Sequence record: NC_041937.1
From: Escherichia phage V18
Reading direction: 5' to 3' (one strand)
DNA: 64,000 nt
The notes beneath the pieces are model-generated. The model was not told the DNA's origin and made no database searches. It saw nothing but the letters and a program-made list of their open reading frames with translations. How positions within the stretch are numbered: position 1 is the first letter of the stretch; each line of letters begins with the position of its first letter. Positions 1 to 64,000 of this stretch are shown here, piece after piece. The position numbers and the translations under genes are program-made.

Positions 1-144
1 GTCACCTTCAAATATCAAGCAAGGACAGAAGACAACAACTACCAATTCCCGGAGTGGTGGGATGCTGTATGCGTCAGAAAATCCGCAGAATATGCAAAAC
101 ATGATGATTCGTTGGAAGAGTGGTTTAATCGGAGGTTTAAATGA
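1..144 (+). CDS. 3' end of an upstream gene, partial (runs off window start), product unknown
   Basis: Open frame from position 1 (…EWFNRRFK) ending at TGA 142-144, overlapping the endolysin ATG (ATGA arrangement). Confidence 0.35.
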   Translation, partial: VTFKYQARTEDNNYQFPEWWDAVCVRKSAEYAKHDDSLEEWFNRRFK

Positions 145-620
145 AGCTAGATAAAAATGTACAATTGAGAGCATTTTTTTCGATGATTTCACACTCAGAA
201 GGTACTGACAGGTATGGTGGCGAAGATGCTTCGTACCACATCCTTGTTGGTGGAAAATACATAGAGGATCTCAGCAGGCATCCCGGTATTTATGTCAAAT
301 TAAGACCGGGCCTTACCTCTTCAGCATTTGGCAGATACCAAATTCTGGAGAAATACGCTAAGCATTACATGAAGCAGCTTGGCTTAAGAGATTTTGGTCC
401 GGCAAGTCAAGATGCCATAGCAAAACAGTTGATCCGCGAATGTAAAGCCCTTGATGACATTTATGAAGGAAGGATCCGTTCAGCTATCTATAAATGCCGT
501 AGCCGTTGGGCAAGTTTCCCACCACCACCGGGGGCTGGTAAACTGTATGATCAGCGTGTAGAAAACATAGAGAAGATGCTGGACGTCTTCCGAAAAGCCG
601 GAGGCACAGTACTGGATTAA
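141..620 (+). CDS. endolysin, phage lambda R-like lytic transglycosylase
   Basis: 159 aa; SEGTD, GRYQ, KQLGLRDF, DAIAKQLI, WASFP and C-terminal AGGTV align by eye with lambda R lysozyme along its whole length. Confidence 0.85.
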   Translation: MKLDKNVQLRAFFSMISHSEGTDRYGGEDASYHILVGGKYIEDLSRHPGIYVKLRPGLTSSAFGRYQILEKYAKHYMKQLGLRDFGPASQDAIAKQLIRECKALDDIYEGRIRSAIYKCRSRWASFPPPPGAGKLYDQRVENIEKMLDVFRKAGGTVLD

Positions 621-683
621 TGGTTGACATAACCACACGGACGTGGTATTGTCACCTCATAAGATGTTCAGGAGGGTTTAACC

Positions 684-890
684 ATGAAAGATTTTCTGTT
701 GGCAATTTTGTTCATGGCGGCATGTCTGGCCTGTGGTGTAGTGTTTGCAGGTGAAACAGCGTATCTTGTCGATGTATATCGGGACAATGGTAAACGTATT
801 TGCCTTTATGAGACAAGCCAAGGTGAGCTCTACGAGCTTGTGAAACAAGGCGAGGCAGGTTCCTGCCCTCGCACCCATTTCTTTGAATAA
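684..890 (+). CDS. small secreted or lipoprotein-like protein next to the endolysin (possible lysis accessory)
   Basis: 68 aa; hydrophobic N-terminus LLAILFMAACLACG with Cys after the signal-like segment; position directly downstream of endolysin. Confidence 0.3.
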   Translation: MKDFLLAILFMAACLACGVVFAGETAYLVDVYRDNGKRICLYETSQGELYELVKQGEAGSCPRTHFFE

Positions 891-899
891 GGGGGATAC

Positions 900-1363
900 G
901 TGGAAGACGGACGTTTAATGAAGTCTGAACGCAGGCTTATTGTGCAACTGATCCCAGAAACAGCTTGGTATAATAACCTCCGAAACGCTGTGAAGGAGAG
1001 TGAGTGGGATAAGATCCGCAAGAAGTGCTATAGAGAAGCCAACTACACTTGTGAGGTGTGTGGCGGTAAAGGCAGCAAACACCCAGTGGAGTGTCATGAA
1101 CTTTACACTTTCGAAGAGGGAGTGATCCGGCTTGTCGGACTGATAGCGTTGTGCCAGATTGTCACACATCGGTGCATCCTGGGTTAGCAAATATTCGTGG
1201 AAAGTATGCTCAGGCAGTTAATCAGTTGGCTAAGGTGAATAAGATCACCAAAGGTATGGCAGAGGCGTATTACCGAGACTGCTTTGCAGAGTGGCGTGAG
1301 CTTAGTAAAGTTCCAGAGTGGAAGACTGACTTTTCGTGGATAGAGGGTTACCTTGATGGCTAA
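900..1363 (+). CDS. HNH-type zinc-finger endonuclease, reading frame interrupted near 1150-1160
   Basis: ORF 900..1187 carries CEVCGG…HPVECHELY and ends GLIALC; ORF 1151..1363 in the next frame starts PDCHTSVHPG. Joined they give the HNH signature LCPDCH; the break lies in a CC run. Confidence 0.5.
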
Positions 1364-1642
1364 GAGATCTGTAAAAGAGAAATTCGATAAGACAGCTTTT
1401 GTATTCGATACACCTCTGGACGATATCATCAGAGGTATGCAAGCCTTGTATCGGAAGGCTGAATCTGAGCAGTTGTCTGAATCAGAACTTTACTGGCTTG
1501 GTTGGTGGGAGTTAAACCTGCCTAAAGCTGAAAGTTCTTGTCTGAGAACTGTTAAAACGTGCGCCCAAGAAAACGCTGCACTTGGAATCTACCACAAAAG
1601 GAAAAGATCAACAAAAAGCTCTCCAAGAAAGACTAAAAAGTC

Positions 1643-1672
1643 TTGACAAAAGTGTTATTAATCTGATATTAT
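1643..1672 (+). promoter_or_regulatory. sigma70-like promoter
   Basis: TTGACA at 1643-1648, 17-18 bp spacer, ATATTAT at 1666-1672; upstream of 1747..2013. Confidence 0.4.
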
Positions 1673-2005
1673 CGGTCAGATATCTATAAACTAGGAGAAC
1701 TAGATATGCTTAAATTTTTATTGTTGAAGATAAAGATATTGTCCAGTTGTATGCAAACGAGAATCATAAAGGTATGATTCTAAAGAAGGCAAGCAACCTT
1801 CATGAAAACACAATTCAACCTGGTGATGTAATTAAGATCTGTGGTTATATGATACCAGACTCCTTGATGAAAATAACCCACCACTGGGGGTCTAATCCGT
1901 TCCTTTTTGAAAAGTATTGGGATGTTGAGTCACTTATTGCAGAGAGTGATGATGCCTTCCATTGCAGCATCCAACCATCTTGCAGAATAACTAACAGGAG
2001 GGTCT

Positions 2006-3145
2006 TTGAGTAGAGAATATCCACTTATTGAGTCCATAGATTGTCTGGCTGATCTTCTTGAACCTGACGCTATAGTTTATTATGACTTCGATCAGGTTGC
2101 ATATCAAGCTGCAGCAAGTTGTGAAAAAAGGACAATTGAGGTAACACACAAAGCCTCCGGACGTAAGAAGATGTTTAAAACACGAACAGAGTTCTGGGGG
2201 CGGCAGAAGAACACCGTTGGTGGTTGGTTAAAAGCTGAGAATACCAACCGTGAAGCTGCATGTAAAAAGGCTGGCAAGGAGTTTATTCCGTGGACACGAG
2301 AAGATTTCGATGTCTTGGATATCCAAACCCCTGATCCTGTAGAGAACTGCTTGCACACAATTAAGTGTAAAGCCAATGCAGTCCTTAATTATCTCGGTAT
2401 TCCGGAAGATCGGTGCGTGGGGGTACTTGGAGGCACAGGTAATTTCAGACTAGATCTTCCCATGCCGGAAAGATATAAAGCCAACCGTAACAATACTCTT
2501 CGACCACTGCTGCTTGGAGATGCAAGACAGTATCTCCAAAAGCAGTATAATGCTCAAGTGATCAACGGTATCGAGGCTGACGACTGGTTAGCTATCCAGC
2601 AATTTGAAGGTTGGAACCACTACCAAAAAACAGGTAAGTTCAACAAGTTTATTATCTCTATTGATAAGGACCAAAGAACACTACCGGGGCTTGTGTTCGA
2701 TCCCATGCGAAACGATAAGGGAGATTTTGTAAGGGAAACCCCTATGCTGATCGATAACGGTATGGGGAACATCTTCATGAAGCCTAATGGAGAGGTTGGT
2801 GGTTACGGAATGCTGTTCTTCGGATACCAAATGCTGTGTGGTGACTCTGCTGACAACATCAAGCCGTATCAAGGACTTATCGGTAAGGGTAAGTTCGGAG
2901 ATGCCTCAGCATTCTACCTACTGTCTCAGTGCAGCACTCCAAAGGAGATGTGGGTGGCTATTATTGATCAGTACAAGAAGTGGTTCCCGAAAGGTGTTGT
3001 TAAGTATACTGACTTCAATGGTATTGATCGTAGAATTTCCGTAGGTCAATGGATGAGTATAATTTTTGACTGTTTGTATATGAAGCGAACATTCAATGAT
3101 CAAACAAAACTTGTTAACGTTCTTAGAAATGTTGGAGCAATTTGA
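2006..3145 (+). CDS. 5'-3' exonuclease / flap endonuclease (T5 D15 / Pol I 5'-nuclease family)
   Basis: 379 aa; acidic clusters YYDFD, RYKANR, GIEADD, CGDSADNIKPYQGLIGKGKFGDA (helix-hairpin-helix region). Confidence 0.7.
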   Translation: MSREYPLIESIDCLADLLEPDAIVYYDFDQVAYQAAASCEKRTIEVTHKASGRKKMFKTRTEFWGRQKNTVGGWLKAENTNREAACKKAGKEFIPWTREDFDVLDIQTPDPVENCLHTIKCKANAVLNYLGIPEDRCVGVLGGTGNFRLDLPMPERYKANRNNTLRPLLLGDARQYLQKQYNAQVINGIEADDWLAIQQFEGWNHYQKTGKFNKFIISIDKDQRTLPGLVFDPMRNDKGDFVRETPMLIDNGMGNIFMKPNGEVGGYGMLFFGYQMLCGDSADNIKPYQGLIGKGKFGDASAFYLLSQCSTPKEMWVAIIDQYKKWFPKGVVKYTDFNGIDRRISVGQWMSIIFDCLYMKRTFNDQTKLVNVLRNVGAI

Positions 3146-3473
3146 TGACTAAAAATTCTGTAGATAACGCAATTATGGAAGCTGTTTTTGAGGATGATCA
3201 CACAACAGGGACACTTAAAACAAAAAATACATTCGTTGTTGCCACAGGTATGTGGCGGTTGTATGAAGATGACACCATTTCATACATCCTGTACACGGAT
3301 GATTACGCAGATGACCGTGTATGGTCTGCTGTTTTAAAAGAGGATTGTGAGCTGATTGAGGGCGAGCGGTTATGCATGTTCACCAGTGTGGAAACAGATG
3401 TTAAGCTTTGCTCTCTCGTCTTGTTCAAAGATAAGGCTTATGCTCCTGATGAAGGAGAGGAGGATGAGGAAGC

Positions 3474-4103
3474 ATGAGAGAGCGTCTATTATCCATAGAC
3501 CAGTCGTTGACACACACAGCTTGCGTTGTATGGGACGATGGAAAGCCTGTTCATAAGGTTGTGTTACGAACTCAAAGCTCATCTGCAAAAGAGATGAAAC
3601 CAGGGACGGTTTCTTTTGCAACAGCTGCTGAGCGTATTGACTGGATCTGCAAACAGGTCAGATATTATATCCACACGCACGGCGTTGACACCGTAGTTAT
3701 GGAAGGGCTTTCCTTTGGATCACGCGGGGATGCCACACGTGAACTGGCTGGGTTGTTTTACGGTCTTGAAGTTATGCTTTGGGATGCCTTAGCTGATTGT
3801 GAAAATGACGGCCTGTTTAAGGTCCACACAGTGACACCAACAACTGCCAAAAAGTTTGCTCGTAGTCATCTTCCTGAGGAACTTGCTTTCGAGGAGAAGA
3901 AAAAGCTTGACAAAAAGACAGGTAAAGAGCATACTGTGAAGAAACCTGTTACGATGGATAAAAAGTTGATGGTTAAGGCCTGCGAAGTATCTGAACCTGG
4001 GTTCCTAGATGGGATCAATTTGGTACAAGGTAAGGCCGATCTCGCAGATGCTTATTGGATAGGCAGGGCGCATCTGGAGGGATTATCGCAAAGCGTAAAA
4101 TAA
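3474..4103 (+). CDS. RuvC-like Holliday junction resolvase (putative)
   Basis: 209 aa; N-terminal LSIDQSLTHTACVVWDD, central VVMEGLSFGS, C-terminal DLADAYWIG, matching the spacing of RuvC-fold catalytic acidic residues. Confidence 0.45.
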   Translation: MRERLLSIDQSLTHTACVVWDDGKPVHKVVLRTQSSSAKEMKPGTVSFATAAERIDWICKQVRYYIHTHGVDTVVMEGLSFGSRGDATRELAGLFYGLEVMLWDALADCENDGLFKVHTVTPTTAKKFARSHLPEELAFEEKKKLDKKTGKEHTVKKPVTMDKKLMVKACEVSEPGFLDGINLVQGKADLADAYWIGRAHLEGLSQSVK

Positions 4104-4660
4104 GAAAGAAAGCTGTCAAAGCCCCCGTTCATAACGGGTGGTTAAAAGATTCTAAGGACATAGCCAACTTTCGAAAAGAATTGTCAGAGGAGCAGGATGG
4201 TCTTGATCCGATCTTGTGCGAGCCACTTCGTAAGCCTTGTTTGGATCATGACCATCTAACTGGTCGTTGCAGGGGTGTTTTGTCACAATGCACTAATACC
4301 TTTGAGGGGTATGTGCTTAAATACTGGATGAAATACTGTAACGAGTATACAGATTGCAGTTTATCAGAGGCGTTGCGCCGGATGGCTGACTATTTGGAGA
4401 AAGACTACAGCGACTTCCCGCTCCACAAAAACTACAGAGATGATATGACAAAGTTCTTGAGGAGATGCTCTAAAGCTACGATCATTGCACGAGCAGAATC
4501 AGATCTCAATCTTGTCATTAATCCAGAGTGCACCAAGCATGAGGCTATTGAGTTCTACATGCAGGAGTTTATAAAGAAAACTGAGGAGAGAGATTTCTAT
4601 GGGGATGAAAAAGGTATTCAATCCTTGCGATTCAGTTCTGATCAGGATGAAATACCGTAA
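4055..4660 (+). CDS. endonuclease VII-like (T4 gp49 family) protein
   Basis: Motif CEPLRKPCLDHDHLTGRCRGVLSQCTN (C..C…DHDH.TG..RG.L..C.N). The start is a non-ATG codon overlapping the upstream gene, so the true start is uncertain. Confidence 0.55.
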   Translation: MDRQGASGGIIAKRKIRKKAVKAPVHNGWLKDSKDIANFRKELSEEQDGLDPILCEPLRKPCLDHDHLTGRCRGVLSQCTNTFEGYVLKYWMKYCNEYTDCSLSEALRRMADYLEKDYSDFPLHKNYRDDMTKFLRRCSKATIIARAESDLNLVINPECTKHEAIEFYMQEFIKKTEERDFYGDEKGIQSLRFSSDQDEIP

Positions 4661-4826
4661 CTGGAAAGGTGTTGTTGCAGATCGCTGCGTTACTGAGCCT
4701 AATTTATGGTTTGGCTCTACAGAGTATCATAAAGAAGAGCAGTGGTTGATGCATGCCTTTGATGTAGACAAGGGCGAATATCGTGACTTCGCTTTAAAAG
4801 ACATTCTTCAGTTTTACTAAGGAATC

Positions 4827-5816
4827 TTGACGATGATGACAAAGTTAACTCTTGAGCAAATTTTAACACTAAAGCAACAGGGATACACTAATAGACAAAT
4901 TGCTCGTGAATTTTTAGGCCGTGAGTCACGTGAGAGCTGGATCCGACTACAGCTTAAACGTGCACAGGAGAATATGTCAGAGATTGTAGGAGAAGCAACG
5001 GAGCGCTTCCTTGAAGAGCACAAAGGTGCTAAAGTTTGGGTGTATGATACAGAGACATCTCCAACAAACGGCTGGTTCTTTGGGCACTATAAGACCAACA
5101 TTCAAACCTGCGGTATTGAAATTATGCCCTACATGCTAACTTTCGCAGGTAAGTGGTTAGACAGTCCTAGTGTGGTTGACTGCGCTCTTCCCGATTACAA
5201 AATGTGGGATGAGGATATTCACAATGATCTCGAATTGATTCAGGATTTGTGGTATTATCTGGATAAATGTGATGTCGCAGTAGCCCACAATTCAGGTTTT
5301 GACTGTGGGTGGGCCAACCAACGATTTGCATTTCACGGGTTGCCTCCAACAAGCCCCTACAAAGAGGTTGACACCCTTAAAATGATCAAGAAGGCATTCC
5401 GTTTGAATGCAAACACTTTGGAGTATGCATGCAAATACTTCCAACTGGCCCGACAGAAACTGATTGATCACACATTTGAAATGTGGATCAAGTGTGTCCA
5501 TGGTGATCTTGAGGCATTTAAACAGATGCGGGAGTATAATGTTGGTGATATCCTGTCTCTGGAAGGACTGTATTTGCTGGCTCGCCCGTTTGCTAAGCAG
5601 CACCCAAACATGTCATTGTACTATCAAGACGAGGAGCCAAAAGTTCGTTGTCCACGCTGTGGTGGAGAACACCTTCACGAGGAAGAAGCTTTGGCGTATA
5701 CTCAACTGAGTGCATTTAAAACATACCGCTGCGAAGGTTGTGGATCTGTTGTTCGTGACCGTAACAACATCCGCACCAGAGAAGAAATGAAAAATACCCT
5801 GATTCAGATAATCTAA
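4827..5816 (+). CDS. DEDD-family 3'-5' exonuclease with N-terminal HTH-like segment
   Basis: 329 aa; WVYDTETSP (Exo I), VAHNSGFDCGW (Exo II), YNVGDILSLEGLY (Exo III, YxxxD); N-terminal QGYTNRQIAREF; C-terminal CPRCGG…CEGCG zinc ribbon. Confidence 0.55.
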   Translation: MTMMTKLTLEQILTLKQQGYTNRQIAREFLGRESRESWIRLQLKRAQENMSEIVGEATERFLEEHKGAKVWVYDTETSPTNGWFFGHYKTNIQTCGIEIMPYMLTFAGKWLDSPSVVDCALPDYKMWDEDIHNDLELIQDLWYYLDKCDVAVAHNSGFDCGWANQRFAFHGLPPTSPYKEVDTLKMIKKAFRLNANTLEYACKYFQLARQKLIDHTFEMWIKCVHGDLEAFKQMREYNVGDILSLEGLYLLARPFAKQHPNMSLYYQDEEPKVRCPRCGGEHLHEEEALAYTQLSAFKTYRCEGCGSVVRDRNNIRTREEMKNTLIQII

Positions 5817-5824
5817 CAATTATA

Positions 5825-5850
5825 GGGAGGCTTGCGCCTCCCTTTTCCTT
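5825..5850 (+). terminator. rho-independent terminator
   Basis: GGGAGGC-ttgc-GCCTCCC stem-loop followed by TTTT, just after the stop of 4827..5816. Confidence 0.5.
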
Positions 5851-6678
5851 TTGGAGGCACTTTGAGCAAGAAAGAGTCCAACGACAAATACTACACAAAC
5901 CCTGAGTATGCAGAATATCTTGTTGGTAAAGTAAAAGATAAGTATGGGAATTGTGCATACGTTGAGCCTTCTGCTGGAAGGGGTTCTTTTTCAAAACTAT
6001 TTTCAGAGATACTGTCGTACGATTTAGTACCAGATCCTGAATTTGAAGGACCAACACCGTGCATTCAGGCAAACTTCTTGGAGGTGCATCCCAAGGCAGA
6101 TGTCTTCATAGGTAACCCACCATTTGGCAAGAATTCATCCTTAGCTTGCAAATTCTTTAACCATTGTGCATCATTGCTAGAGCTTGGAGGGGCTATAGCC
6201 TTCATCTTGCCACGGACATTTGAAAAAATTTTTTTCAAACAAACTGGACATGTCGATGCACCTTGTCTACAGCGAAAGGTGCCCTAAGAATTCGTTTTTA
6301 CTTAATGGCAAACCTTATGACGTGCCATGTGTTTTCCAAATTTGGGAGAAAAAGGCGTGCAATAGGGATCCTGTAGAGATTGGAGAGAATAAGTTATTTT
6401 CTTTTAGCACACCAGATGACTACGACTTCTGTGTAAGACGTGTTGGGTATAATGCTGGAAAAGTATTGGGGGATGATGACCCAAAATCTGAAGAATCAAC
6501 ATATTTCATAAAATCTTTAGTTAACGGTGTTGACAGAGTGTTTGCTGAATGCTATTCTTCTTTTCAAGAAGAAGCAGGTAAGACTGCTGGAATGAAGAGT
6601 ATAGGTAAGAAAGAACTACAATACATTTTGGAGACCAGGTATGATCAAAAGCATAGACTTGACCAAAGAACTTACTGA
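5832..6678 (+). CDS. N6-adenine DNA methyltransferase, frame interrupted near 6220-6290
   Basis: AdoMet motif EPSAGRGSF and catalytic IGNPPFGKN in ORF 5832..6287; continuation (…CVFQIWEKK) in ORF 6220..6678 in another frame; break in an A6T7 homopolymer stretch. Start codon uncertain. Confidence 0.5.
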
Positions 6679-7099
6679 TGCAAAAGCTTTTGGTGAGACA
6701 GCGGTACAAAGAGGACAGGCGATGGGACTGGCACTACCTTTCGTCTTAAAAGAGCACTTTACAGATTTTCAACTTATCAAAGGTGATAAGGGAATGCTTA
6801 TCCTGGAGCATAAGTTGAGTAAGAAACGCTATAAAGTCGTTTTTAATTCTAAAGCTCCAACAAAACTGGGATTCAGAACTTACAATCTTAACCCATCCTA
6901 CACTAAGGGTGTTGGAAGGGTAGAACAACAGCATTTCAGTGCCAGAGCTTCTTTAGCCCCTTTGATGCTAAATTTCTCAGGGGTGGCTTTAGGATACCTT
7001 GATAAGAAAAGGGTTCTTCATGTTCGTTTCACAGACTTTGTAACGCTTTTAGCTAACAACGAGGTTGATGAGAAGGGACGTGTAAAAACAAACTTCTAA
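6641..7099 (+). CDS. hypothetical protein
   Basis: 152-aa ORF, no recognisable motif. Confidence 0.3.
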   Translation: MIKSIDLTKELTDAKAFGETAVQRGQAMGLALPFVLKEHFTDFQLIKGDKGMLILEHKLSKKRYKVVFNSKAPTKLGFRTYNLNPSYTKGVGRVEQQHFSARASLAPLMLNFSGVALGYLDKKRVLHVRFTDFVTLLANNEVDEKGRVKTNF

Positions 7100-7325
7100 T
7101 AACGCATAGTATGATTGGAGACCGAAATGACACAATGACACTAGAGTTAACAATTCCAGACAGCTTTTCAGAAAACTTTATCCCAGAAATGATGAGTAAG
7201 ATGCGATCATTGCTTGATCAGATTGAGGAGGCTGTTTGGGAAGACGATGCTGTAGTGGCTAACGAGCTGGTAGATAAGTGTAAAAGTATTATTGATGCAG
7301 TTGAAGAATACCACGGAGGTTTTTA

Positions 7326-9712: not shown

Positions 9713-9741
9713 TCCTATCACAGCGATAGGTAACTTTTGTG

Positions 9742-9770: not shown

Positions 9771-9771
9771 A

Positions 9772-12825: not shown

Positions 12826-12832
12826 TTTTAAA

Positions 12833-57128: not shown

Positions 57129-57914
57129 TTATTCCCCTCTCCTTACTACAGGCTCGTTTGCTAAGAATACAGCTTTTGCCCAGCCACGTGGTGTGAGGCT
57201 TCGAATCATCTTCGTTCTTGCACTCTTTCCACCAAGCTTGGCGTGTTGCATGGAATACCCGCTAACCACGTCAACTATTTGCGGGACAGGTTTTGTGTCC
57301 GGGATTATAAATCCATTACCTATCCAGCCGCAAGTTATTTTTGGATAGGCATCACGTGGAGCTATAAATTCAGGAAACCATGGGTTTACATCATCCTCAG
57401 GTAAATACCCGCCATAGTCAGAAGGATGAAAACGGTAATCAGGTTTGCGCCACAGTGTGGACATAACACCAACAGGATTCTCTACATGCCACGGGCAATC
57501 GTAAATCTCTCCCAGCTCTTCCGCAACCCGAGCATCCTTTACAGCATTAATTTGGATCATGGGGTCCTTAGCCAGCTTTTTCTTAAAATGTGCAGCACCC
57601 GATACCGCTAAATGCGTGCACGGAGGAAATGCAAGAATAAAGTCTGGAGCTGGATACATGCAAAAAGTTTCCTGAGGGAACCACGGGTCAATCCAATAGT
57701 CAACATAGTGAATGTTGGGATGATCGGTTATCACCTCTGCATAACTGCCGTGATCAGCACCTTCTGCGTTAAAGCACAGGCACAGATATCCAGCTTTTGC
57801 CCAGTCAATGACTGCACCACCAGACCCGTCAAATAGACTCCACACAACACCTTTGTGGTAGTGTTCTTTGTAGATAAATTTCAATTTGCTGTCTCCTAAT
57901 GCAAAAAGCCCCAC
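57129..57914 (-). CDS. C5-cytosine DNA methyltransferase-like protein
   Basis: 261 aa; LFDGSGG (motif I F.G.GG), FPPCTH (motif IV PC), HVENPVG (motif VI ENV); shorter than typical Dcm-type enzymes. Confidence 0.35.
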   Translation of the reverse strand: MGLFALGDSKLKFIYKEHYHKGVVWSLFDGSGGAVIDWAKAGYLCLCFNAEGADHGSYAEVITDHPNIHYVDYWIDPWFPQETFCMYPAPDFILAFPPCTHLAVSGAAHFKKKLAKDPMIQINAVKDARVAEELGEIYDCPWHVENPVGVMSTLWRKPDYRFHPSDYGGYLPEDDVNPWFPEFIAPRDAYPKITCGWIGNGFIIPDTKPVPQIVDVVSGYSMQHAKLGGKSARTKMIRSLTPRGWAKAVFLANEPVVRRGE

Positions 57915-57930
57915 CCTTTCGGGCAGGGCC
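57902..57930 (-). terminator. rho-independent terminator (minus strand), identical to 47228-47249
   Basis: GCCCCACCCTTTCGGGCAGGGC at 57908-57929 followed by a U-run on the minus strand. Confidence 0.45.
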
Positions 57931-57935
57931 TAGTG

Positions 57936-58418
57936 TTAAACCCGGATACCTATTGTATACTCGGTGGATACCAATGTCAAATCTAAATTTAAAATTTCTT
58001 GCATCTCATAATATGCGTCCAGGGTGAGATACATTTCCCCATCCTTTTCTACATACTTGTCCAAGTGCTTGAGGCATTTCGGATAACTATCAAGTGCAGC
58101 TTTCAGACACTCAAATTCTGTGCTGTTGATGAATCCTTCCATCTTAGCTACCCGTTCTGGAGTAACGATAGCACTGTAGTGAGATTTAGCTTCCTGAATG
58201 CAATGGGTCCAAGCATCAACTTTCTCTTCAAAAAGTCCGAAGAACTTCTTTTTGGTGAGCTTCAGATTCTTTAAGTGCTTAAGCACTCGGTTGCCGATCA
58301 CAGCTACATCACGAAACTTAAGGATCACTTTGTCGATATCCTCGCGGCCTATTTTCACAAAGCAAGCCTCGCACATTTCAGGAGTGGCATAGCCTACTTT
58401 CCACATAAAATCTGACAT
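57936..58418 (-). CDS. hypothetical protein
   Basis: 160-aa ORF between two methyltransferase-like genes. Confidence 0.35.
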   Translation of the reverse strand: MSDFMWKVGYATPEMCEACFVKIGREDIDKVILKFRDVAVIGNRVLKHLKNLKLTKKKFFGLFEEKVDAWTHCIQEAKSHYSAIVTPERVAKMEGFINSTEFECLKAALDSYPKCLKHLDKYVEKDGEMYLTLDAYYEMQEILNLDLTLVSTEYTIGIRV

Positions 58419-58430
58419 AGCACTCTCTCC

Positions 58431-58826
58431 TTATTCCTGAAAAGCAACGATATCATATGAACTTGCAGATGATCCTGGTGAAGAATGACTCCAGTCTAGG
58501 TCATCAGAGTAGTCAGCGTACTGTGCACCACTACGTAGTTTGTATTTTACCCACTTACCTGGTGCAGGGTTTTCACCACCTTCCCATACTTCCCAGCCTT
58601 CTGGCAGGCCGTCCTGGGGGTAGTCATCCACCTCACTAATAATCTTAGGGTTTGGCACCAAGATCCCCGCAGGCTCTTCCTTCCGGATAAGTGTCCACAC
58701 AGCGCAGGTGTCTGAGCAGGCGCATGATAGCAAAGTATATCCACTATTCAGAACTTCTGCAAGCTCTTTTTCAGCATCTTCTAATTTGGTTAAGTGGTAT
58801 TGGATAATCTTCACACCTGTAATCAT
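58431..58826 (-). CDS. hypothetical protein
   Basis: 131-aa ORF. Confidence 0.35.
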   Translation of the reverse strand: MITGVKIIQYHLTKLEDAEKELAEVLNSGYTLLSCACSDTCAVWTLIRKEEPAGILVPNPKIISEVDDYPQDGLPEGWEVWEGGENPAPGKWVKYKLRSGAQYADYSDDLDWSHSSPGSSASSYDIVAFQE

Positions 58827-59170
58827 CAGAAACCTCCCACTTCTTCAGCAAATGCAGCTGCTGTCGTCGCTGCATCCAGATAGGACTCTAGTTCACGGGA
58901 TGCACGTTTGTAAATTGAGTGGCGCATATCGTTTGGCAGTTGGTGGAAGTCCACCTCTTCACCGTTGTGGTAAACATGCACATCGGTAATTTGTCTAAAT
59001 CCGTAATAGTCAACATCAGAATCACGGCACTCTGGGTCTGGCAACTGGACAACTGCCTGAGCTTCCACAGTGAACATATCGTCAAGTTCGAAATCGATTT
59101 CAAAAGTGTATGGTTTATAACGTTTCATCATTTGATTGTGCTCTTTATTGATCAGACTTATCTTTCGCAA
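58826..59170 (-). CDS. hypothetical protein
   Basis: 114-aa ORF. Confidence 0.35.
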   Translation of the reverse strand: MRKISLINKEHNQMMKRYKPYTFEIDFELDDMFTVEAQAVVQLPDPECRDSDVDYYGFRQITDVHVYHNGEEVDFHQLPNDMRHSIYKRASRELESYLDAATTAAAFAEEVGGF

Positions 59171-60470
59171 TTAAGGTCGGGGTAAGTTTGTAATAACGGA
59201 AGCCACCACCACCTTTCCAGTTTACAGACTTAGAAATACCACCTTGATCTTCGCCATCGATCACTTTTTCCAAGCGCGGAATAATATGGGTATGACAATG
59301 ATCACCTAGCTCGATTGAGATCCAACGTCTTTTCATCTTGTGAGCTACAGCAGCAGTAGTTCCCGAACCACCGAATGAATCCAATACCAAATCGCCTTCT
59401 CGCGTACACATTTCTAAAATCCGCTTCAAAAGAGCTTCTGGTTTTTTCCCATTTTTGAAACTGACGCCGCCTTCATTTGCTATTCCATTCCAACTAATGT
59501 CTGTCCAAACATCAGTTATTAGTTCCGCAGGTTGCATCTCACCGTCAATTTCCAAAAGTCTATTGGAGTAAAAGACCATTTGCCTACCATTTGCGATATA
59601 AAATCCTTCAACATCCTCATTTGGATGTACATAAACCTTATCCCTATCTTTCTTTGACTTCTCGATAGTTTCTTTTCTCTTTATTTTAGCACCACCACCA
59701 ATTGCAACAGATTGAAATACACGTTCTGCATTATCAGTTGCGAATTGTGCTAATTCATCATCGAATGTATCAGGCAGTTTTTTCTTGGCTTCTTTTGCAT
59801 CTTTATAACCATTGGCCTTTGCAAACGCATCGGCAATACCGCACCACGTCCAATTTTTATAATGGTCATCCGGGTTTAATAGGTATTTGTTATATCCTGT
59901 ATCATACCCTTTAGGTATATAGATTTTGTTAAGCGGTTTCTGGGTGCGATCTTTTGCATATACAAGCAAAAAGTTTGCTGTGGAGAAAACTGTGGCTCCT
60001 GTTGCCTTAAATCCCGAAGGGGAATTTGTGGTCATCGATATGGTATTTAACTGATTTGCACGACCAAAAATCTCGTCCATCAAAACTTTTAAATACGCCA
60101 TTTCGCAATCATCTAAGTGAACGAATATTACCCCATCATCACTTAGAAGATTACGAATTATTTCTAACCTATCCCTCATTAAGCCCAGCCAAATGGAATG
60201 CTCCAGGCTATCATCGTAGTGCTCAAAAGCCCTTCCGGTATTGAATGGTGGGTCTATGTAAACACACTTCACTTTGCCTGCATACTCTTGCTCTAGCGCC
60301 TTCAATGCTAATAAGTTATCTCCAAAAATCAGTTTATTATCAAAAATATCGTTTTCGGTCACTTTCTGGCTGTGGTAAGACTTGCTAGAATCCTCTAACA
60401 AAATGTGCGGCTCTAACTTTTTGCGCTCGTTTTTACCTATCCAGGTAAGTTCTAATTTGGTTTTGCTCAT
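59145..60470 (-). CDS. DNA methyltransferase, beta-class N6-adenine/N4-cytosine type
   Basis: 441 aa; catalytic VYIDPPFNTG upstream of the AdoMet motif VLDSFGGSGTTAAVA (beta-class order). Confidence 0.7.
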   Translation of the reverse strand: MSKTKLELTWIGKNERKKLEPHILLEDSSKSYHSQKVTENDIFDNKLIFGDNLLALKALEQEYAGKVKCVYIDPPFNTGRAFEHYDDSLEHSIWLGLMRDRLEIIRNLLSDDGVIFVHLDDCEMAYLKVLMDEIFGRANQLNTISMTTNSPSGFKATGATVFSTANFLLVYAKDRTQKPLNKIYIPKGYDTGYNKYLLNPDDHYKNWTWCGIADAFAKANGYKDAKEAKKKLPDTFDDELAQFATDNAERVFQSVAIGGGAKIKRKETIEKSKKDRDKVYVHPNEDVEGFYIANGRQMVFYSNRLLEIDGEMQPAELITDVWTDISWNGIANEGGVSFKNGKKPEALLKRILEMCTREGDLVLDSFGGSGTTAAVAHKMKRRWISIELGDHCHTHIIPRLEKVIDGEDQGGISKSVNWKGGGGFRYYKLTPTLIAKDKSDQ

Positions 60471-60531
60471 CGTTTGGTGCTCTCCTTAGTTTTTGTGGGG
60501 AGGAGTGCCTCCCCTTTATACTCACATCTTA

Positions 60532-60873
60532 CTACTCAAGGTCTTCAGAGTCAAGCTCAAAAAGAATCAAACTGTGCATGCCTGCAGAGAGATTAACACA
60601 CCCTGCAACAATAAGGGTTTGATAGTAAGGTTCAGCACCCTCAATGTCTTCGTTAAAATCCACAACAAGGTAGTCACCTTTGTTAAAGGTGTATTTGTCC
60701 GATGTAAACGCAAAACCTGCCCAGTCCCCTACTGCAGGATCTTTATCAGTCACCTTTGTTAGCAGTAGATCTTTTTCACGAGATCTTTTAGTAAAATCGT
60801 GAATCACAACATCCTTCTCTTCAGGAGTCGGATTGCCACACACGTAGTTAACGATATTTCTCCACAAACTCAT
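60532..60873 (-). CDS. hypothetical protein
   Basis: 113-aa ORF. Confidence 0.35.
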   Translation of the reverse strand: MSLWRNIVNYVCGNPTPEEKDVVIHDFTKRSREKDLLLTKVTDKDPAVGDWAGFAFTSDKYTFNKGDYLVVDFNEDIEGAEPYYQTLIVAGCVNLSAGMHSLILFELDSEDLE

Positions 60874-62240
60874 ACGTCCCCCTCTTCTGCTCTGGTTTCA
60901 AAATCTTTCCTGACAATTTTGTCTAAGTCAGGGAATGTTGTATTGTAAAACTCTACGACTCGCGGGTCAACAATAATGTCAACTTCTCTTAGCGGACGCA
61001 ACAAGTTTATTCCTTGTATTGTCTTAACTCTACTCAAAGCGACATACGTCATCCCAGGAGAGAAAGCTCCGTTCTTTCCAAGGTCTAGGTTGTAACAATC
61101 TAGCGTAAGTCCTTGACTTTTATGAGATGTTACGGCGTACCCAGATTTCAGAGGAAGTTGCTTGTATGACCCAATCACTACCCTCTCTATAAACTTCTCC
61201 ATCTTCCTTTCTGCAATGTTGTATCTCTGAGATGGCTTATACTCGTTATTCTCCCACAACCTCTGCTCTATGTCAACCTGTGTTCCATCTTCAAGCTCTA
61301 CCACCACCGCCTTGTTCTTAAATTTAACAATCGTGGCACGTGTTCCGTTAACATAATAAGGTACTTTGTGCGTCGGGTCAACATCGTTGGCGGTTATCAT
61401 AACTTTCATGCCAATTTTCAACTTCATCTCCTGCTCAACTGGCAGGGTGGAGGGAAACTTACCCTTCATTTCACCAGTGTATACCTTCTCTGGGGCGTTG
61501 ATGGCATCATAGAACCTTCTGTTCACTTCCTCTGCTTGTTTGTTGGTGGCGCAAATTGTGAGAGCATCTGTTGGTACACCACCTTTGTAACAGCGAGCAT
61601 TAAGTTCTGCTACAACCTCTTTTATGCGACGACCCTCACGAACACAGTTGAGCATTGTGGCAAATCGAATAGACTCCTGTCGGAACTGATCTATTAGGGC
61701 TATGTTGTGGAGGTCAAGCTCTTTCCAAGATTCGGTATAGCAACACAGGTCCGTATGGTAGAAGTTGAAATAGGCTTCCTTCTCCATAGAAGAGACAACA
61801 GGAGGTGCCTGGTAAAAATCGCCAAACAATATGACCTGTATGCCTCCGAAAGGTTTGTCATTTTTTCGAAGGAAGCGGAGTTTCCTATCCATCTCTATAA
61901 ACTTATCAGCGCGGATCATAGAGATTTCATCGATAATTAGGATGGTAAATGCCTTGCTTTTCAAAGGCTTTGCTGTTTTTGCCCTTATTGCGGTCCAGTC
62001 TGACTCCATGCTCACACCTGCTGCAAGATCGAAGGTTCGGTGTGCTGTTGCTCCATTAACGTTTAAAGCGGCTACCCCTGTCGGGGCAACCGTTATGCAA
62101 GAGTCTCCATACATTGACTGGATCATGTTGATGAGATACGTCTTCCCACAACCTGCAGGCCCTGAAACGAAGACATTCTCACCACTCATGATTGCAACGA
62201 GGGCAGCATCTGTGCCTACATCATACTGCCCTTTTTCCAT
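60870..62240 (-). CDS. superfamily 1 DNA helicase, Dda/RecD/Pif1-like
   Basis: 456 aa; Walker A VSGPAGCGKTYL, Walker B ILIIDEISM, further SF1 motifs (VILFGDFYQ, GYAVTSHKSQGLTL, VALSRV). Confidence 0.7.
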   Translation of the reverse strand: MEKGQYDVGTDAALVAIMSGENVFVSGPAGCGKTYLINMIQSMYGDSCITVAPTGVAALNVNGATAHRTFDLAAGVSMESDWTAIRAKTAKPLKSKAFTILIIDEISMIRADKFIEMDRKLRFLRKNDKPFGGIQVILFGDFYQAPPVVSSMEKEAYFNFYHTDLCCYTESWKELDLHNIALIDQFRQESIRFATMLNCVREGRRIKEVVAELNARCYKGGVPTDALTICATNKQAEEVNRRFYDAINAPEKVYTGEMKGKFPSTLPVEQEMKLKIGMKVMITANDVDPTHKVPYYVNGTRATIVKFKNKAVVVELEDGTQVDIEQRLWENNEYKPSQRYNIAERKMEKFIERVVIGSYKQLPLKSGYAVTSHKSQGLTLDCYNLDLGKNGAFSPGMTYVALSRVKTIQGINLLRPLREVDIIVDPRVVEFYNTTFPDLDKIVRKDFETRAEEGDV

Positions 62241-63481
62241 TACGCCTCCTCGTAAAGAATGTCGATAGTGTTACCGTCACGATCAACTACATATTCAATA
62301 GGGTCTCCATCTTTGCGTGCTTCCGGAGCTACCACAATCTCATAGCGGCATGCACGGCACTTAGCGCTATTGTGTTGGTATGGCACACTAACCACATCTG
62401 CAGGGTCAACCATAACAGTCATTACAGTGCCGTAGCTCTTTGCATACTCTTTGCTGGCGCAGTGTAGGCCATAGGAGCACGCAGCTTCAGGATCATCCTC
62501 TACAAAGTTACGAGGCATGGATACAAAAGCACCTTGGTATTGTGGGACTTTACCACTGTGCCAATCCACCCACTTGCTGCCGTTAAACTGAACCCCTTTG
62601 TAGCAAATGATTCGACCATCTTCTGCAATCTGGATATCGTTGGCCTGCATAAAGTCGTAGAGCATGTTTACAGATTTTGCAGAAGGATTGCGTAGCAGGC
62701 GAACGAGGAATTTCACATAGCGGTCATCTAGTGTTCCGTCTGCATAATCTTTCTCAATTTTCTTTGCAATGGTGGATCGCATCTCTACACCGTAGTAGTA
62801 GAGCTTACCATCTTTCATAATCAGGTTGTCTGCAAGTGTGGTGAACTCATTCTTGCGTTCCAGCCAGACAAGGATTTCACCAATTGCCTCATCATATTCC
62901 TGAACAGAGATATGGTCGAAGACTTTCTGGTAAACTTCCTCACTTTCGCTGCGGCGAATTTCAAAAATGCCTTCGTTGCAGGTGATCTGGAGAAGTTCCC
63001 CGCAAATAACTACCAAAGGCTCGATGCTTCGAGTCTGTTGCTGAGACACACTGCTCACCACCTCCAGCACCGGATCTTTGACTTCTACTAAAGGTTCTTC
63101 TGACTTGATTGCTACTCCAGTTAACCCCACACCGTGAACAACACACAGTGGGTATACCACGCCCCAACGTTTAACGGAACCTTCGCCTAAATCTAAGATC
63201 ATGGCGTACTTACCGTTATCTTCCAGACCGTATCGAAATAAACGGGCCTCTTCGCGGGTTTCAAAATCCTCACGGGTGTAGCAGACGCTGTCACGGTCAG
63301 GATCGAACAACTCTGGGGCACCCACTGCCAGTGTCCAGGTTGTGTCGCCTTTCTCAATAGCACATGTGAAACCCTTCTTCTCAAGTTCTGCACGGCGGTC
63401 GCGTGCTTCTTTACGAGTTTTGAAGTGTTCGTAGATGAAAATCATAACTGTCTCCTTATTTGGTGTTATTCTTTGTATCAA
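62240..63481 (-). CDS. hypothetical 413-aa protein
   Basis: Long ORF, start overlaps the helicase stop; no motif I can assign with confidence. Confidence 0.45.
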   Translation of the reverse strand: MIQRITPNKETVMIFIYEHFKTRKEARDRRAELEKKGFTCAIEKGDTTWTLAVGAPELFDPDRDSVCYTREDFETREEARLFRYGLEDNGKYAMILDLGEGSVKRWGVVYPLCVVHGVGLTGVAIKSEEPLVEVKDPVLEVVSSVSQQQTRSIEPLVVICGELLQITCNEGIFEIRRSESEEVYQKVFDHISVQEYDEAIGEILVWLERKNEFTTLADNLIMKDGKLYYYGVEMRSTIAKKIEKDYADGTLDDRYVKFLVRLLRNPSAKSVNMLYDFMQANDIQIAEDGRIICYKGVQFNGSKWVDWHSGKVPQYQGAFVSMPRNFVEDDPEAACSYGLHCASKEYAKSYGTVMTVMVDPADVVSVPYQHNSAKCRACRYEIVVAPEARKDGDPIEYVVDRDGNTIDILYEEA

Positions 63482-63531
63482 TCAGCTCACGGTATTCAAT
63501 CATAGCAGGGGTGTCCCAATATTTCAAGCGA

Positions 63532-64000
63532 AAGCTAGATAAAAATGTACAATTGAGAGCATTTTTTTCGATGATTTCACACTCAGAAGGTACTGACAGG
63601 TATGGTGGCGAAGATGCTTCGTACCACATCCTTGTTGGTGGAAAATACATAGAGGATCTCAGCAGGCATCCCGGTATTTATGTCAAATTAAGACCGGGCC
63701 TTACCTCTTCAGCATTTGGCAGATACCAAATTCTGGAGAAATACGCTAAGCATTACATGAAGCAGCTTGGCTTAAGAGATTTTGGTCCGGCAAGTCAAGA
63801 TGCCATAGCAAAACAGTTGATCCGCGAATGTAAAGCCCTTGATGACATTTATGAAGGAAGGATCCGTTCAGCTATCTATAAATGCCGTAGCCGTTGGGCA
63901 AGTTTCCCACCACCACCGGGGGCTGGTAAACTGTATGATCAGCGTGTAGAAAACATAGAGAAGATGCTGGACGTCTTCCGAAAAGCCGGAGGCACAAGAC
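63532..64000 (+). CDS. second copy of the endolysin coding sequence (partial; runs off window end)
   Basis: 63532-63996 matches 144-608 by eye; lacks the ATG (CGA at 63529-63531); in-frame GTG at 63511 or TTG at 63460 upstream; diverges at 63997-63998. Confidence 0.45.

What the first reader, a model, noticed from the sequence alone, without database searches (positions are those of the whole stretch)
1..64000. Replication and nucleotide-metabolism genes present, but no virion structural, packaging or integration genes
Across the 63.4 kb between the endolysin copies I recognise DNA polymerase, primase-helicase, helicase, SSB, nucleases, both RNR classes, thyX, kinase and phosphatase, phoH, methyltransferases and an endolysin. 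I find no terminase, portal, capsid, tail or integrase candidates; the remaining ORFs are mostly under 160 aa. So this is either part of a larger phage genome with structural genes beyond the endolysin, or an unusual replicon lacking them.
Basis: inference. Interest (0 to 1): 0.5.

Follow-up and report, generated by a model that had tools for sequence, protein, structure and literature searches.

The report
Non-structural half of an rV5-like phage
The window is simply the replication, nucleotide-metabolism and early-gene half of a well-known ~136 kb E. coli phage (rV5-like, genus Vequintavirus); the capsid, tail and packaging genes sit in the other ~70 kb, so their absence here is ordinary.

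Summary
The gene inventory is correct. PHROGs scans of all 132 ORFs and Pfam scans of about 115 of them found no terminase, portal, capsid, tail or integrase family. The explanation is ordinary. Window 1-63529 is collinear, at 94-98% nucleotide identity, with more than 100 Vequintavirus (rV5-like) genomes of 131-143 kb. It runs from the DNA ligase 3' end and the endolysin to rIIB and the rIIA 3' end, about 49% of the genome. In the references the remaining ~70 kb holds the tail fibres, baseplate, tape measure, sheath, capsid, portal, terminase, spanins and tRNAs.

Caveats:
- Three small ORFs are homologues of rV5 proteins detected in virions by mass spectrometry.
- A ClpP-like protease could be the head-maturation protease.
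- The "second endolysin copy" is not a gene. It is an exact 465-nt fragment (codons 2-156) joined to a truncated rIIA. This junction occurs in no public sequence searched.
- The source also carries private frameshifts (PhoH, primase-helicase and others) and a private 806-nt deletion that removes the putative holin.

A simple 63.4 kb circle or tandem unit is excluded, because the sequences flanking the two copies differ. Whether the junction is an assembly artefact or a real ectopic insertion cannot be decided: only 4 nt follow it.

Verdict: already known, low interest.

The parts
1..144 (+). 3' end of the ATP-dependent DNA ligase gene. Its stop codon TGA (142-144) overlaps the endolysin ATG.
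   Evidence: Lies under the ligase CDS of slur16, rV5_ev147 and EduardKellenberger. Exact 16-mer match found.
141..620 (+). Endolysin, 159 aa, a lambda R-like lytic transglycosylase. The allele is shared with EduardKellenberger, JEP1 and YP-6 and differs from the rV5/slur16 allele.
   Evidence: phrog_90, E 9e-40. PDB 1am7 lambda lysozyme, E 6e-31..
900..1363 (+). HNH homing endonuclease, split by a private 1-nt deletion near position 1154.
   Evidence: phrog_5200. Indel seen against three references.
2006..5816 (+). Nuclease cluster: 5'-3' exonuclease (2006-3145), RuvC-like resolvase (3474-4103), endonuclease VII (4055-4660) and DnaQ-like exonuclease subunit (4827-5816).
   Evidence: phrog_107, phrog_159, phrog_423 and phrog_403.
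5832..6678 (+). N6-adenine DNA methyltransferase, split by a net -2 indel in an A/T run at 6230-6236.
   Evidence: phrog_5172. rV5 gp100. Indels.
7326..9712 (+). dNMP-kinase-like protein (7326-7940), NT5C 5'-nucleotidase (7934-8527) and ThyX thymidylate synthase (8729-9712).
   Evidence: phrog_139 and phrog_85. Pfam NT5C.
10510..17004 (+). Ribonucleotide reductases: class Ia NrdA and NrdB, glutaredoxin, class III NrdD (in three ORF pieces because of private indels) and the NrdG activase.
   Evidence: phrog_84, 86, 22, 487, 4218 and 626. Pfam NRDD, Gly_radical and Fer4_12. Indels.
17568..18355 (+). PhoH-like ATPase, split by a private 1-nt deletion at 17798.
   Evidence: phrog_170 and Pfam PhoH. 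All 73 matching phage records have one more base.
18829..19875 (+). ClpP-like serine protease with a ~170-aa C-terminal extension. Candidate head-maturation protease (inference only).
   Evidence: phrog_5410, E 3e-152, with secondary hits to head-maturation-protease PHROGs at E 7e-21. Pfam CLP_protease. The reference head module has no recognisable protease.
22073..22537 (+). 154-aa protein with a hydrophobic C-terminal segment (rV5 gp133 is listed with 1 TMD). Corresponds to rV5 gp133, 'structural protein (MS evidence)'.
   Evidence: phrog_7821 'virion structural protein', E 8e-70. rV5 Table S3. No Pfam or PDB relative. Homologues found only in Vequintavirus-size contigs.
23297..23482 (+). 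61-aa ORF matching rV5 gp137 ('structural protein, MS evidence') in length and position.
   Evidence: Gene order and sizes compared with rV5 Table S3. phrog_2381, unknown function.
27718..28047 (+). 109-aa ORF matching rV5 gp152 ('structural protein, MS evidence') in length and position.
   Evidence: rV5 Table S3. phrog_12457, unknown function.
21726..21727 (.). Private 806-nt deletion junction between TATGG microhomologies. It removes most of rV5 gp128, all of the putative holin gp129 and the 5' part of gp130.
   Evidence: Alignment to slur16. tblastn. None of 118 matching records is contiguous across it.
31230..33370 (.). About 2.1 kb stretch without credible ORFs where the two convergent transcription units meet. 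It equals the rV5 'non-coding' box.
   Evidence: PMC3606486.
33371..47699 (-). About 40 small ORFs (49-144 aa) of unknown function, with many sigma70-consensus promoters and stem-loop terminators. Typical early, host-takeover region.
   Evidence: PHROGs: unknown function only, plus one EndoVII. Pfam: only T7 1.1-like, a zinc-binding domain and a DUF. Promoter and terminator excess. Repeat family D2.
47810..49036 (-). 408-aa SSB-like protein: beta-rich OB-like N-terminal domains, a Q-rich disordered linker, a helical domain and an acidic C-terminal tip ...EFDDSIPF.
   Evidence: phrog_4477, unknown function. The family consensus ends in DFDDDIPF, with P and F invariant. AlphaFold model pLDDT 73; weak Foldseek hits to RPA, SSB and phage SSB.
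52226..57055 (-). Family A DNA polymerase (52226-55003) and primase-helicase (55062-57055, split by a net -1 private indel at 56791-56813).
   Evidence: phrog_17, phrog_8888 and phrog_239. All 87 matching records have one more base.
57129..62240 (-). Two DNA methyltransferases (57129-57914 and 59145-60470), small ORFs and a Dda/RecD-like helicase (60870-62240).
   Evidence: phrog_757, phrog_67 and phrog_325.
62240..63445 (-). rIIB homologue, 401 aa counted from the ATG.
   Evidence: phrog_609. Annotated rIIB in slur16 and bov10K2.
63456..63529 (-). Last ~74 nt of rIIA. The gene is cut off here; the references continue CTACATGC...
63532..63996 (+). Exact 465-nt copy of window 144-608 (endolysin codons 2-156). 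It has no start codon of its own. It is preceded by a GA filler and an AAGC microhomology and followed by AGAC.
   Evidence: The junction was absent from all collections searched.

Best explanation
The window is a contiguous ~63.5 kb piece, about 49%, of the genome of a virulent rV5-like E. coli myophage (genus Vequintavirus, 131-143 kb). These phages package by the headful mechanism and have circularly permuted genomes.

The window covers two convergent non-structural transcription units. In rV5 numbering these are gp89-gp163 on the + strand and gp164-gp238 on the - strand. Together they encode:
- the endolysin;
- nucleases and nucleotide-metabolism enzymes;
- DNA methyltransferases and the replisome;
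- rIIB;
- about 90 small early ORFs, apparently transcribed from host-type promoters (consensus matches only).

The virion, packaging and tRNA genes are not missing from the phage. They lie in the other ~70 kb, between rIIA and the ligase. An integrase is absent because rV5-type phages are described as lytic.

Shown: identity, collinearity, gene content, and the position of the structural module in relatives.

Inferred: the source molecule itself carries that module beyond the window. The terminal rIIA'/endolysin-fragment junction is more likely an assembly or chimera artefact (my estimate ~0.5) than a real ectopic insertion (~0.3).
For: Similarity to known genomes:
- Megablast gave 113, 52 and 106 records that cover at least 80% of window thirds 1-20000, 20001-44000 and 44001-64000 in one place. 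The records listed are 131-144 kb; those with a taxonomy line are Vequintavirus.
- Coordinates in slur16 are 104476..136896 followed by 1..34078.
- The slur16 annotation for 34-104 kb lists rIIA, tail fibres, baseplate, tape measure, sheath, tube, major capsid, decoration protein, portal (phrog_113), split TerL, spanins and 7 tRNAs.

Published background:
- The rV5 paper reports a 137,947 bp circularly permuted genome with four transcription units and structural genes gp27-81.
- PhageTerm indicated headful packaging for another Vequintavirus, and genus genomes are 131-140 kb (PMC13211470).

Gene content of the window:
- PHROGs and Pfam scans found only replication, nucleotide-metabolism, methylation, lysis and unknown-function families.
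- The GC-skew sign flips near 30 kb, where the coding strand switches.
- There is an excess of sigma70-like promoters in the small-ORF region.

In favour of an error-prone source: private frame-breaking 1-nt indels, mostly contractions of short base runs, occur in conserved genes including the primase-helicase.
Against: The window itself never shows a structural gene, so the presence of the structural module in the source is inferred from relatives.

The right end is not native. rIIA is truncated after ~74 nt and joined to an endolysin fragment. In this particular molecule the sequence beyond position 64000 is therefore unknown.

The source has several private lesions: an 806-nt deletion that includes the putative holin, plus frameshifts in the primase-helicase, PhoH, NrdD and a methyltransferase. 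If these are real rather than errors, the genome would be defective.
Confidence: 0.92

Rival explanations
1. The junction is real. A 465-nt piece of the phage's own endolysin gene has been copied ectopically into the 3' part of rIIA, by microhomology-mediated template switching or break repair. The result is an otherwise full-length ~136 kb genome with a disrupted rIIA and two direct repeats 63.4 kb apart.
For: - There is an AAGC microhomology on both sides of the left junction with a 2-nt filler (CAAGC-GA-AAGCTAGAT). This is typical of illegitimate recombination.
- The two nt after a possible AG filler (AC) agree with the rIIA continuation CT|ACATGC.
- The same source carries another clearly recombinational private event, the 806-nt deletion between TATGG repeats, and an 8-nt tandem duplication.
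- The endolysin locus is a homing-endonuclease hot spot in relatives: a putative homing endonuclease lies upstream in EduardKellenberger, and an extra unnamed ORF follows the lysin in rV5_ev147.
Against: - Only 4 nt follow the fragment, and a 2-nt agreement has a 1 in 16 chance.
- The junction is absent from 116 related phage records and from the viral, genome and metagenome collections.
- Chimeric reads and assemblies also join at microhomologies.
Confidence: 0.3
2. The window comes from a self-contained ~63.4 kb replicon. This would be a circular or tandemly repeated deletion derivative that keeps the replication and nucleotide-metabolism genes and has lost all virion genes. It would correspond to the reader's 'unusual replicon', for example a defective mini-genome propagated with a helper.
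For: - An exact direct repeat with 63,388-nt spacing brackets just the non-structural half.
- The rIIA'|endolysin joint is what a deletion of the whole structural half would leave.
- The source carries lesions in genes that a helper could complement.
Against: - A circle or concatemer predicts that window 1-143 equals 63389-63531. Instead 109 of 143 positions differ, and 1-143 is the native ligase 3' end.
- The 4 nt after the repeat (AGAC) differ from copy 1 (GTAC).
- No such element occurs in E. coli genomes, plasmids, phage records or metagenome contigs.
- The only plasmid-labelled relative is a full-length 137.6 kb genome.
Confidence: 0.04
3. Structural genes are present in the window but hidden among the small or unannotated ORFs.
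For: - Three small ORFs correspond to rV5 proteins found in virion preparations by mass spectrometry. One of them falls in a PHROG labelled 'virion structural protein'.
- The ClpP-like protease resembles ClpP-type prohead proteases.
- The reference head module has no recognisable protease.
Against: - No capsid, portal, terminase, sheath, tube, baseplate or fibre family was found for any ORF in PHROGs, or in the Pfam scans that covered about 115 of the 132 ORFs.
- All of those functions are accounted for in the other half of related genomes.
- The largest unknown ORF (408 aa) models as OB-like domains plus a helical domain, not as a capsid or portal fold.
- The mass-spectrometry-detected proteins are 61-154 aa, one has a membrane anchor, and they could be carry-over from lysate.
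Confidence: 0.05

Closest known systems
Escherichia phage rV5 and the genus Vequintavirus (e.g. slur16 NC_028248, bov10K2 MT884008, rV5_ev147 LR597647, BASEL phages Bas48-59 such as EduardKellenberger MZ501061 and RudolfGeigy MZ501102)
   Same: Window 1-63529 has the same gene order and 94-98% nucleotide identity. It also shares the two convergent non-structural transcription units, the ~2 kb non-coding box between them, and the same replication, RNR, ThyX, PhoH, ClpP and rIIB gene set.
   Different: - The mosaic is private: the best reference changes along the window (rV5_ev147 98.5%, RudolfGeigy 95.4%, bov10K2 97.4%).
- The endolysin allele is that of the murica-type phages, but without their adjacent homing endonuclease.
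- There is a private 806-nt deletion of the putative holin region.
- There are private frameshifts.
- rIIA is truncated and joined to an endolysin fragment.
T4-type genome organisation: virulent myophage with an rIIA/rIIB pair, an endolysin placed away from the other lysis genes, and headful packaging (compared from general knowledge of T4)
   Same: Replication and nucleotide-metabolism genes are clustered apart from the morphogenesis genes. Homing endonucleases are scattered through these genes.
   Different: The window has a family A DNA polymerase and a T7-type primase-helicase. As I recall it, T4 uses a family B polymerase with separate gp41 helicase and gp61 primase. There is no sequence relationship beyond individual domains.
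Deletion mini-genomes and defective interfering genomes of headful-packaging phages; tandem duplications of the kind I recall from classical T4 rII genetics (not checked here)
   Same: A novel joint between rIIA and a distant gene, with a direct repeat, is the kind of joint such rearrangements leave.
   Different: The periodicity test fails at both ends of the repeat. No independent evidence exists for a 63 kb molecule.

Membership tests
Vequintavirus (rV5-like) phage genome segment | High nucleotide identity across the compared length to genus members. As I recall it, the ICTV genus criterion is about 70% or more. | tested here: met
   94-98% identity over window 1-63529 to more than 100 records. 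This was tested only for the half of the genome that is visible.
Vequintavirus (rV5-like) phage genome segment | Conserved synteny: ligase, lysin, nucleases, ThyX, NrdAB, NrdDG, PhoH, ClpP, then small ORFs, the non-coding box, small ORFs, and then DNA polymerase, primase-helicase, helicase, rIIB and rIIA. | tested here: met
   Collinear BLAST blocks against slur16. Gene-by-gene agreement with rV5 Table S3 and the slur16 annotation.
Vequintavirus (rV5-like) phage genome segment | Myovirus structural module and intron-split large terminase in the same genome. | not testable with these tools
   This lies outside the window. It is present in all full-length relatives inspected.
Autonomous 63.4 kb circular or tandem replicon (mini-genome, phage-plasmid) | Sequence periodicity: everything beyond one unit length repeats the start of the unit. 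| tested here: not met
   Only 465 of the 612 overlapping positions repeat. Positions 1-143 against 63389-63531 differ at 109 sites, and the last 4 nt differ at 2 sites.
Autonomous 63.4 kb circular or tandem replicon (mini-genome, phage-plasmid) | Plasmid-type maintenance genes (Rep initiator, partition system), or occurrence as a plasmid or episome in host assemblies. | tested here: not met
   No such family appeared in PHROGs or Pfam. The only PLSDB relative is a full-length 137.6 kb phage genome. Complete E. coli genomes share only a ~480-nt stretch of a DNA methyltransferase gene with window 60000-63900 and have no match to the junction region.
Temperate phage or integrated prophage | Integrase or transposase, attachment sites and flanking host genes. 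| tested here: not met
   No integrase family was found. The only 'transposase' label is an 88-aa ORF (phrog_14449) with no Pfam domain. There is no host DNA in the window. E. coli chromosomes share only a ~480-nt stretch of a methyltransferase gene with the 3.9 kb stretch queried, window 60000-63900.
Endolysin gene duplication (two functional copies) | The second copy is a complete ORF with a start codon, a stop codon and translation signals. | tested here: not met
   Copy 2 starts at codon 2 and has lost its ATG. It departs from copy 1 twelve nt before the stop codon. It lies antisense to the rIIA remnant and has no ribosome-binding site of its own.

The most novel reading that the evidence does not exclude
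The rIIA'/endolysin joint is real. The source phage then carries two exact 465-nt direct repeats that bracket precisely its replication and nucleotide-metabolism half. Homologous recombination between them, within a genome or a concatemer, would release a 63,388-bp circle. That circle would contain the polymerase, primase-helicase, helicase, SSB-like protein and RNR genes but no virion genes. It would be a potential self-replicating, helper-dependent mini-genome of a virulent myophage. The private lesions in the window (holin-region deletion, frameshifts in the primase-helicase and PhoH) would then be decay tolerated because a full-length helper complements them.
Probability: 0.06. Interest if true: 0.5.

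Novelty: already known. Interest (0 to 1): 0.1.

Why it matters
It matters little for biology. The absence of structural genes comes from looking at 64 kb of a ~136 kb genome whose modules are well separated, and this layout has been described for rV5 since 2013.

It has some practical value:
- The source sequence should be treated with caution. It has a non-native terminal junction, private frameshifts in conserved genes and a private deletion.
- It shows that 'no structural genes in this window' must be checked against genome size before an unusual replicon is proposed.
- It flags two small open points in this phage group: whether the ClpP-like protease encoded among the metabolism genes is the head-maturation protease, and whether the three small proteins detected by mass spectrometry are true virion components.

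Tried and rejected
1. Circular or wrap-around origin of the repeat. Rejected by base-by-base comparison at a 63,388-nt offset. The 4 nt before the window start in the references (GTTT) also do not match the window end (AGAC).

2. Simple insertion with rIIA resuming immediately. The references continue CTAC... where the window has AGAC. The result is inconclusive with 4 nt.

3. An endolysin allele ending ...GGCACAAGAC in relatives. None was found in five fetched loci or in IMG/VR.

4. Finding the source contig:
   - The junction 38-mer and a gapped version were searched in viral, genome and metagenome contigs.
   - BLAST was run against phage records and E. coli genomes.
   - Exact-product look-ups were done for the chimeric ORF and for the truncated PhoH and primase fragments.
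   - All were negative.

5. An exact-pattern test of the PhoH frameshift in IMG/VR was uninformative, because the repaired control pattern was also absent. It was replaced by BLAST against phage records.

6. Rfam over the whole window and, more permissively, over the non-coding box gave no hits.

7. The 'transposase' PHROG label on an 88-aa ORF was rejected as evidence for integration. The ORF has no Pfam domain and the label is inherited.

8. A weak PhoH hit to a terminase PHROG (E 1e-4) was rejected as probable P-loop similarity.

9. The slur16 gp061 'endolysin' next to rIIA was considered as a source of copy 2. It was set aside on orientation and position alone: it lies on the other strand, upstream of rIIA. 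Its sequence was not compared.

10. A structure prediction for the 154-aa virion-associated ORF was not run. Its homologues are all 60% identical or closer, so the alignment is too shallow.

Full report
**Observation**

The window has 132 plausible ORFs, 85% coding. Genes lie on the + strand up to ~31.2 kb and on the - strand from ~33.4 kb. The GC-skew sign flips at the same place. There are no tRNA genes.

I scanned every ORF against PHROGs, using concatenated polyproteins so that all 18.3 k residues fitted into three calls and mapping hits back by coordinates. I then scanned ORFs g19-g132 against Pfam, together with ten picked ORFs, six of which are not in those two batches.

- family A DNA polymerase, T7-type primase-helicase and Dda/RecD-like helicase;
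- 5'-3' exonuclease, DnaQ-like exonuclease, RuvC-like nuclease and two EndoVII nucleases, plus an HNH endonuclease;
- NrdA/NrdB with glutaredoxin, and NrdD/NrdG;
- ThyX, a dNMP-kinase-like protein and an NT5C nucleotidase;
- PhoH, four DNA methyltransferases and a ribosome-hibernation-factor homologue;
- rIIB and an endolysin that resembles lambda R (PDB 1am7, E 6e-31).

The SSB call is indirect. The 408-aa ORF (47810-49036, - strand) has no named family. Its family consensus ends in DFDDDIPF, which as I recall it matches the tip of E. coli SSB. An AlphaFold model (pLDDT 73) gives beta-rich OB-like domains whose best, weak Foldseek matches are RPA, SSB and phage SSBs.

No terminase, portal, capsid, sheath, tube, baseplate, fibre or integrase family appeared. 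110 of the 132 ORFs are shorter than 160 aa.

**What it is**

Megablast of the three thirds of the window against 50,697 phage records found 113, 52 and 106 records that cover at least 80% of each third in one place. Identity was 94-98%. The records listed are 131-144 kb, and those with a taxonomy line belong to the genus Vequintavirus (rV5-like).

In slur16 (136,896 bp) the window corresponds to 104476..136896 followed by 1..34078, about 49% of the genome, in collinear blocks. The left edge of the window is the last ~144 nt of the DNA ligase gene. The right edge of the native part is rIIB plus the last ~74 nt of rIIA.

The slur16 annotation for the remaining 70 kb lists the following (portal confirmed by PHROGs):
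- rIIA, homing endonucleases and a 5.6 kb Ig-like protein;
- tail fibres, baseplate, tape measure, sheath and tube;
- neck proteins, major capsid, decoration protein and portal;
- the split large terminase, spanins and seven tRNAs;
- a few metabolic genes up to the ligase.

The rV5 paper describes the same layout. The genome is 137,947 bp and circularly permuted. There are four transcription units, with structural genes gp27-81, lysin gp89, DNA polymerase gp228, primase-helicase gp230 and helicase gp237 (PMC3606486). Another Vequintavirus was assigned headful packaging by PhageTerm, and genus genomes are 131-140 kb (PMC13211470).

The small-ORF region between 33.8 and 43.5 kb carries many sigma70-consensus promoters on the coding strand and an excess of stem-loop terminators. 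That is what an early, host-takeover region looks like. The lack of structural genes is therefore a consequence of the window size and the modular genome. It is not a property of the replicon.

**Qualifications to 'no structural genes'**

rV5 Table S3 labels three small proteins in this region as 'structural protein (MS evidence)': gp133 (151 aa, one TMD), gp137 (61 aa) and gp152 (109 aa).

Their counterparts in the window, matched by order and length, are 22073-22537, 23297-23482 and 27718-28047. The first falls in phrog_7821 'virion structural protein' at E 8e-70. None has a Pfam relative, and the first, the only one searched against the PDB, has no PDB relative either. Homologues of the first occur only in Vequintavirus-size contigs. 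They may be minor virion components or lysate carry-over.

The ClpP-like protease (18829-19875) has secondary similarity to ClpP-type head-maturation proteases (E 7e-21). The head module of the reference has no recognisable protease between the portal and capsid genes. This enzyme may therefore be a morphogenetic function encoded away from the head genes. That is an inference and was not tested.

**The 'second endolysin copy'**

Window 63532-63996 is an exact copy (465/465) of 144-608, which is codons 2-156 of the 159-codon endolysin, on the same strand. It lacks the ATG. It is preceded by the rIIA remnant plus a GA filler, with AAGC present on both sides of the joint. It is followed by AGAC. 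That sequence matches none of the candidates: the endolysin continues GTAC, rIIA continues CTAC, and the sequence upstream of the window start is GTTT.

A 63,388-nt circle or tandem unit is excluded. Window 1-143, the native ligase end, differs from 63389-63531 at 109 of 143 positions.

The joint was not found in:
- 116 related phage records;
- IMG/VR, GTDB genomes or JGI metagenome contigs;
- complete E. coli genomes;
- the only plasmid-labelled relative, CP057073.1, a full-length 137.6 kb phage genome whose match also stops at window 63529.

Exact-product look-ups for the chimeric ORF found nothing either.

**Other private features of the source**

Relative to three or four independent references, the window has frame-breaking indels in:
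- the HNH endonuclease;
- the adenine methyltransferase;
- NrdD;
- PhoH;
- a small ORF;
- the primase-helicase.

There is also an 8-nt tandem duplication. For PhoH and the primase-helicase, all 73 and 87 matching phage records contain one more base than the window. Most of these indels are contractions of 2-3-base runs, the pattern of sequencing error.

There is also an 806-nt deletion between TATGG microhomologies. It removes most of gp128, the putative holin gp129 and part of gp130. None of 118 matching records is contiguous across it.

The endolysin allele is that of murica-type phages such as EduardKellenberger. There a homing endonuclease sits immediately upstream. In rV5_ev147 an extra ORF of about 230 aa of unknown function follows the lysin. 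The locus is therefore a recombination hot spot.

**Weighing the joint**

An error-prone or chimeric assembly explains the frameshifts in an essential gene and a joint seen nowhere else. I put this at about 0.5.

A real microhomology-mediated ectopic insertion into rIIA is plausible, given the other genuine-looking rearrangements, and would leave a viable ~136 kb genome if rIIA is dispensable. I put this at about 0.3.

A tandem or mini-genome structure is contradicted by both flanks. I put this at 0.05 or less.

Four nucleotides after the fragment are not enough to decide. One further kilobase of the source, or reads spanning the joint, would settle it.

**Comparison, novelty and verdict**

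The sequence is a member of a well-described genus. The features that define membership and can be tested on this half, identity and synteny, are met. The features of an autonomous replicon, of a prophage and of a functional endolysin duplication were tested and not met.

The finding is an accurate observation with an ordinary explanation. It is already known and of low interest.

The only non-ordinary reading left is that the joint is real and that the two direct repeats could excise a 63.4 kb replication-competent circle. I give that about 6%.

Noticed in passing
window 63456-64000: rIIA is cut off after its last ~74 nt and joined, through a GA filler and a duplicated AAGC, to an exact 465-nt copy of endolysin codons 2-156. 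The 4 nt that follow (AGAC) match no expected continuation. The joint is absent from every public collection searched.
   Followed up: yes
window 21726/21727: A private 806-nt deletion between TATGG microhomologies removes most of rV5 gp128, the whole putative holin gp129 and the 5' part of gp130. None of 118 related phage records is contiguous across it.
   Followed up: yes
window 1154, 6230-6236, 7126, 15093, 15318, 17798, 50254, 56791-56813: Private frame-breaking indels in the HNH endonuclease, adenine methyltransferase, a small ORF (8-nt tandem duplication), NrdD, PhoH, another small ORF and the primase-helicase. Most are 1-nt contractions of short runs, which suggests sequencing or assembly error in the source.
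   Followed up: yes
window 31230-33370: A ~2.1 kb stretch without credible ORFs, with the lowest GC in the window (0.387), lies where the two transcription units converge. It equals the rV5 'non-coding' box. There was no Rfam match even at E<=1. The 9-mer CCTGAAGAG occurs 8 times in the window (0.6 expected), 5 of them on the + strand between 30715 and 31902. It could be an origin, a pac region or an RNA gene.
   Followed up: partly
window 18829-19875: The ClpP-like protease, with a ~170-aa C-terminal extension, lies among the metabolism genes. It has secondary hits to ClpP-type prohead proteases, while the reference head module shows no recognisable protease. It might be the head-maturation protease.
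   Followed up: partly
window 141-620 and relatives L009 1759-2951, L007 530-1694: The endolysin locus is mosaic. The window carries the lambda R-like allele of murica-type phages but lacks their upstream homing endonuclease. rV5_ev147 has a different lysin allele, followed by an extra ORF of about 230 aa annotated only as hypothetical.
   Followed up: partly
window 37184-37234, 40578-40628, 40913-40963, 41533-41583: A 51-nt repeat family combines a GC-rich stem-loop (GGCCCTGG...CAAGGCC) with a TTGACA-type promoter on the - strand. These look like terminator/promoter cassettes between early genes.
   Followed up: partly
window 43451-43635: Three ~46-nt direct repeats, spaced 65-74 nt apart, lie in a 242-nt intergenic gap of the early region. 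They overlap a long AT-rich hairpin (43467-43504). Function unknown; iterons or a promoter array are possible.
   Followed up: no
window 60000-60484: The 5' part of the 441-aa DNA methyltransferase gene (59145-60470, - strand) is 94% identical at nucleotide level to a site-specific DNA methyltransferase gene in 29 complete E. coli chromosomes. This indicates recent exchange with host or prophage DNA.
   Followed up: no
window 45572-45997: The Tk.4-like macro-domain gene of the references (annotated 'phosphatase' or Poa1p-like) appears truncated. About 274 nt of slur16 are replaced by ~58 nt in the window, and only ORF fragments remain.
   Followed up: no
window 47810-49036: The SSB-like protein has no PHROG or Pfam function. 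Its family consensus C-terminus is DFDDDIPF, which as I recall it matches the E. coli SSB tip (the window protein ends EFDDSIPF). This suggests that it recruits host SSB-interacting proteins.
   Followed up: partly
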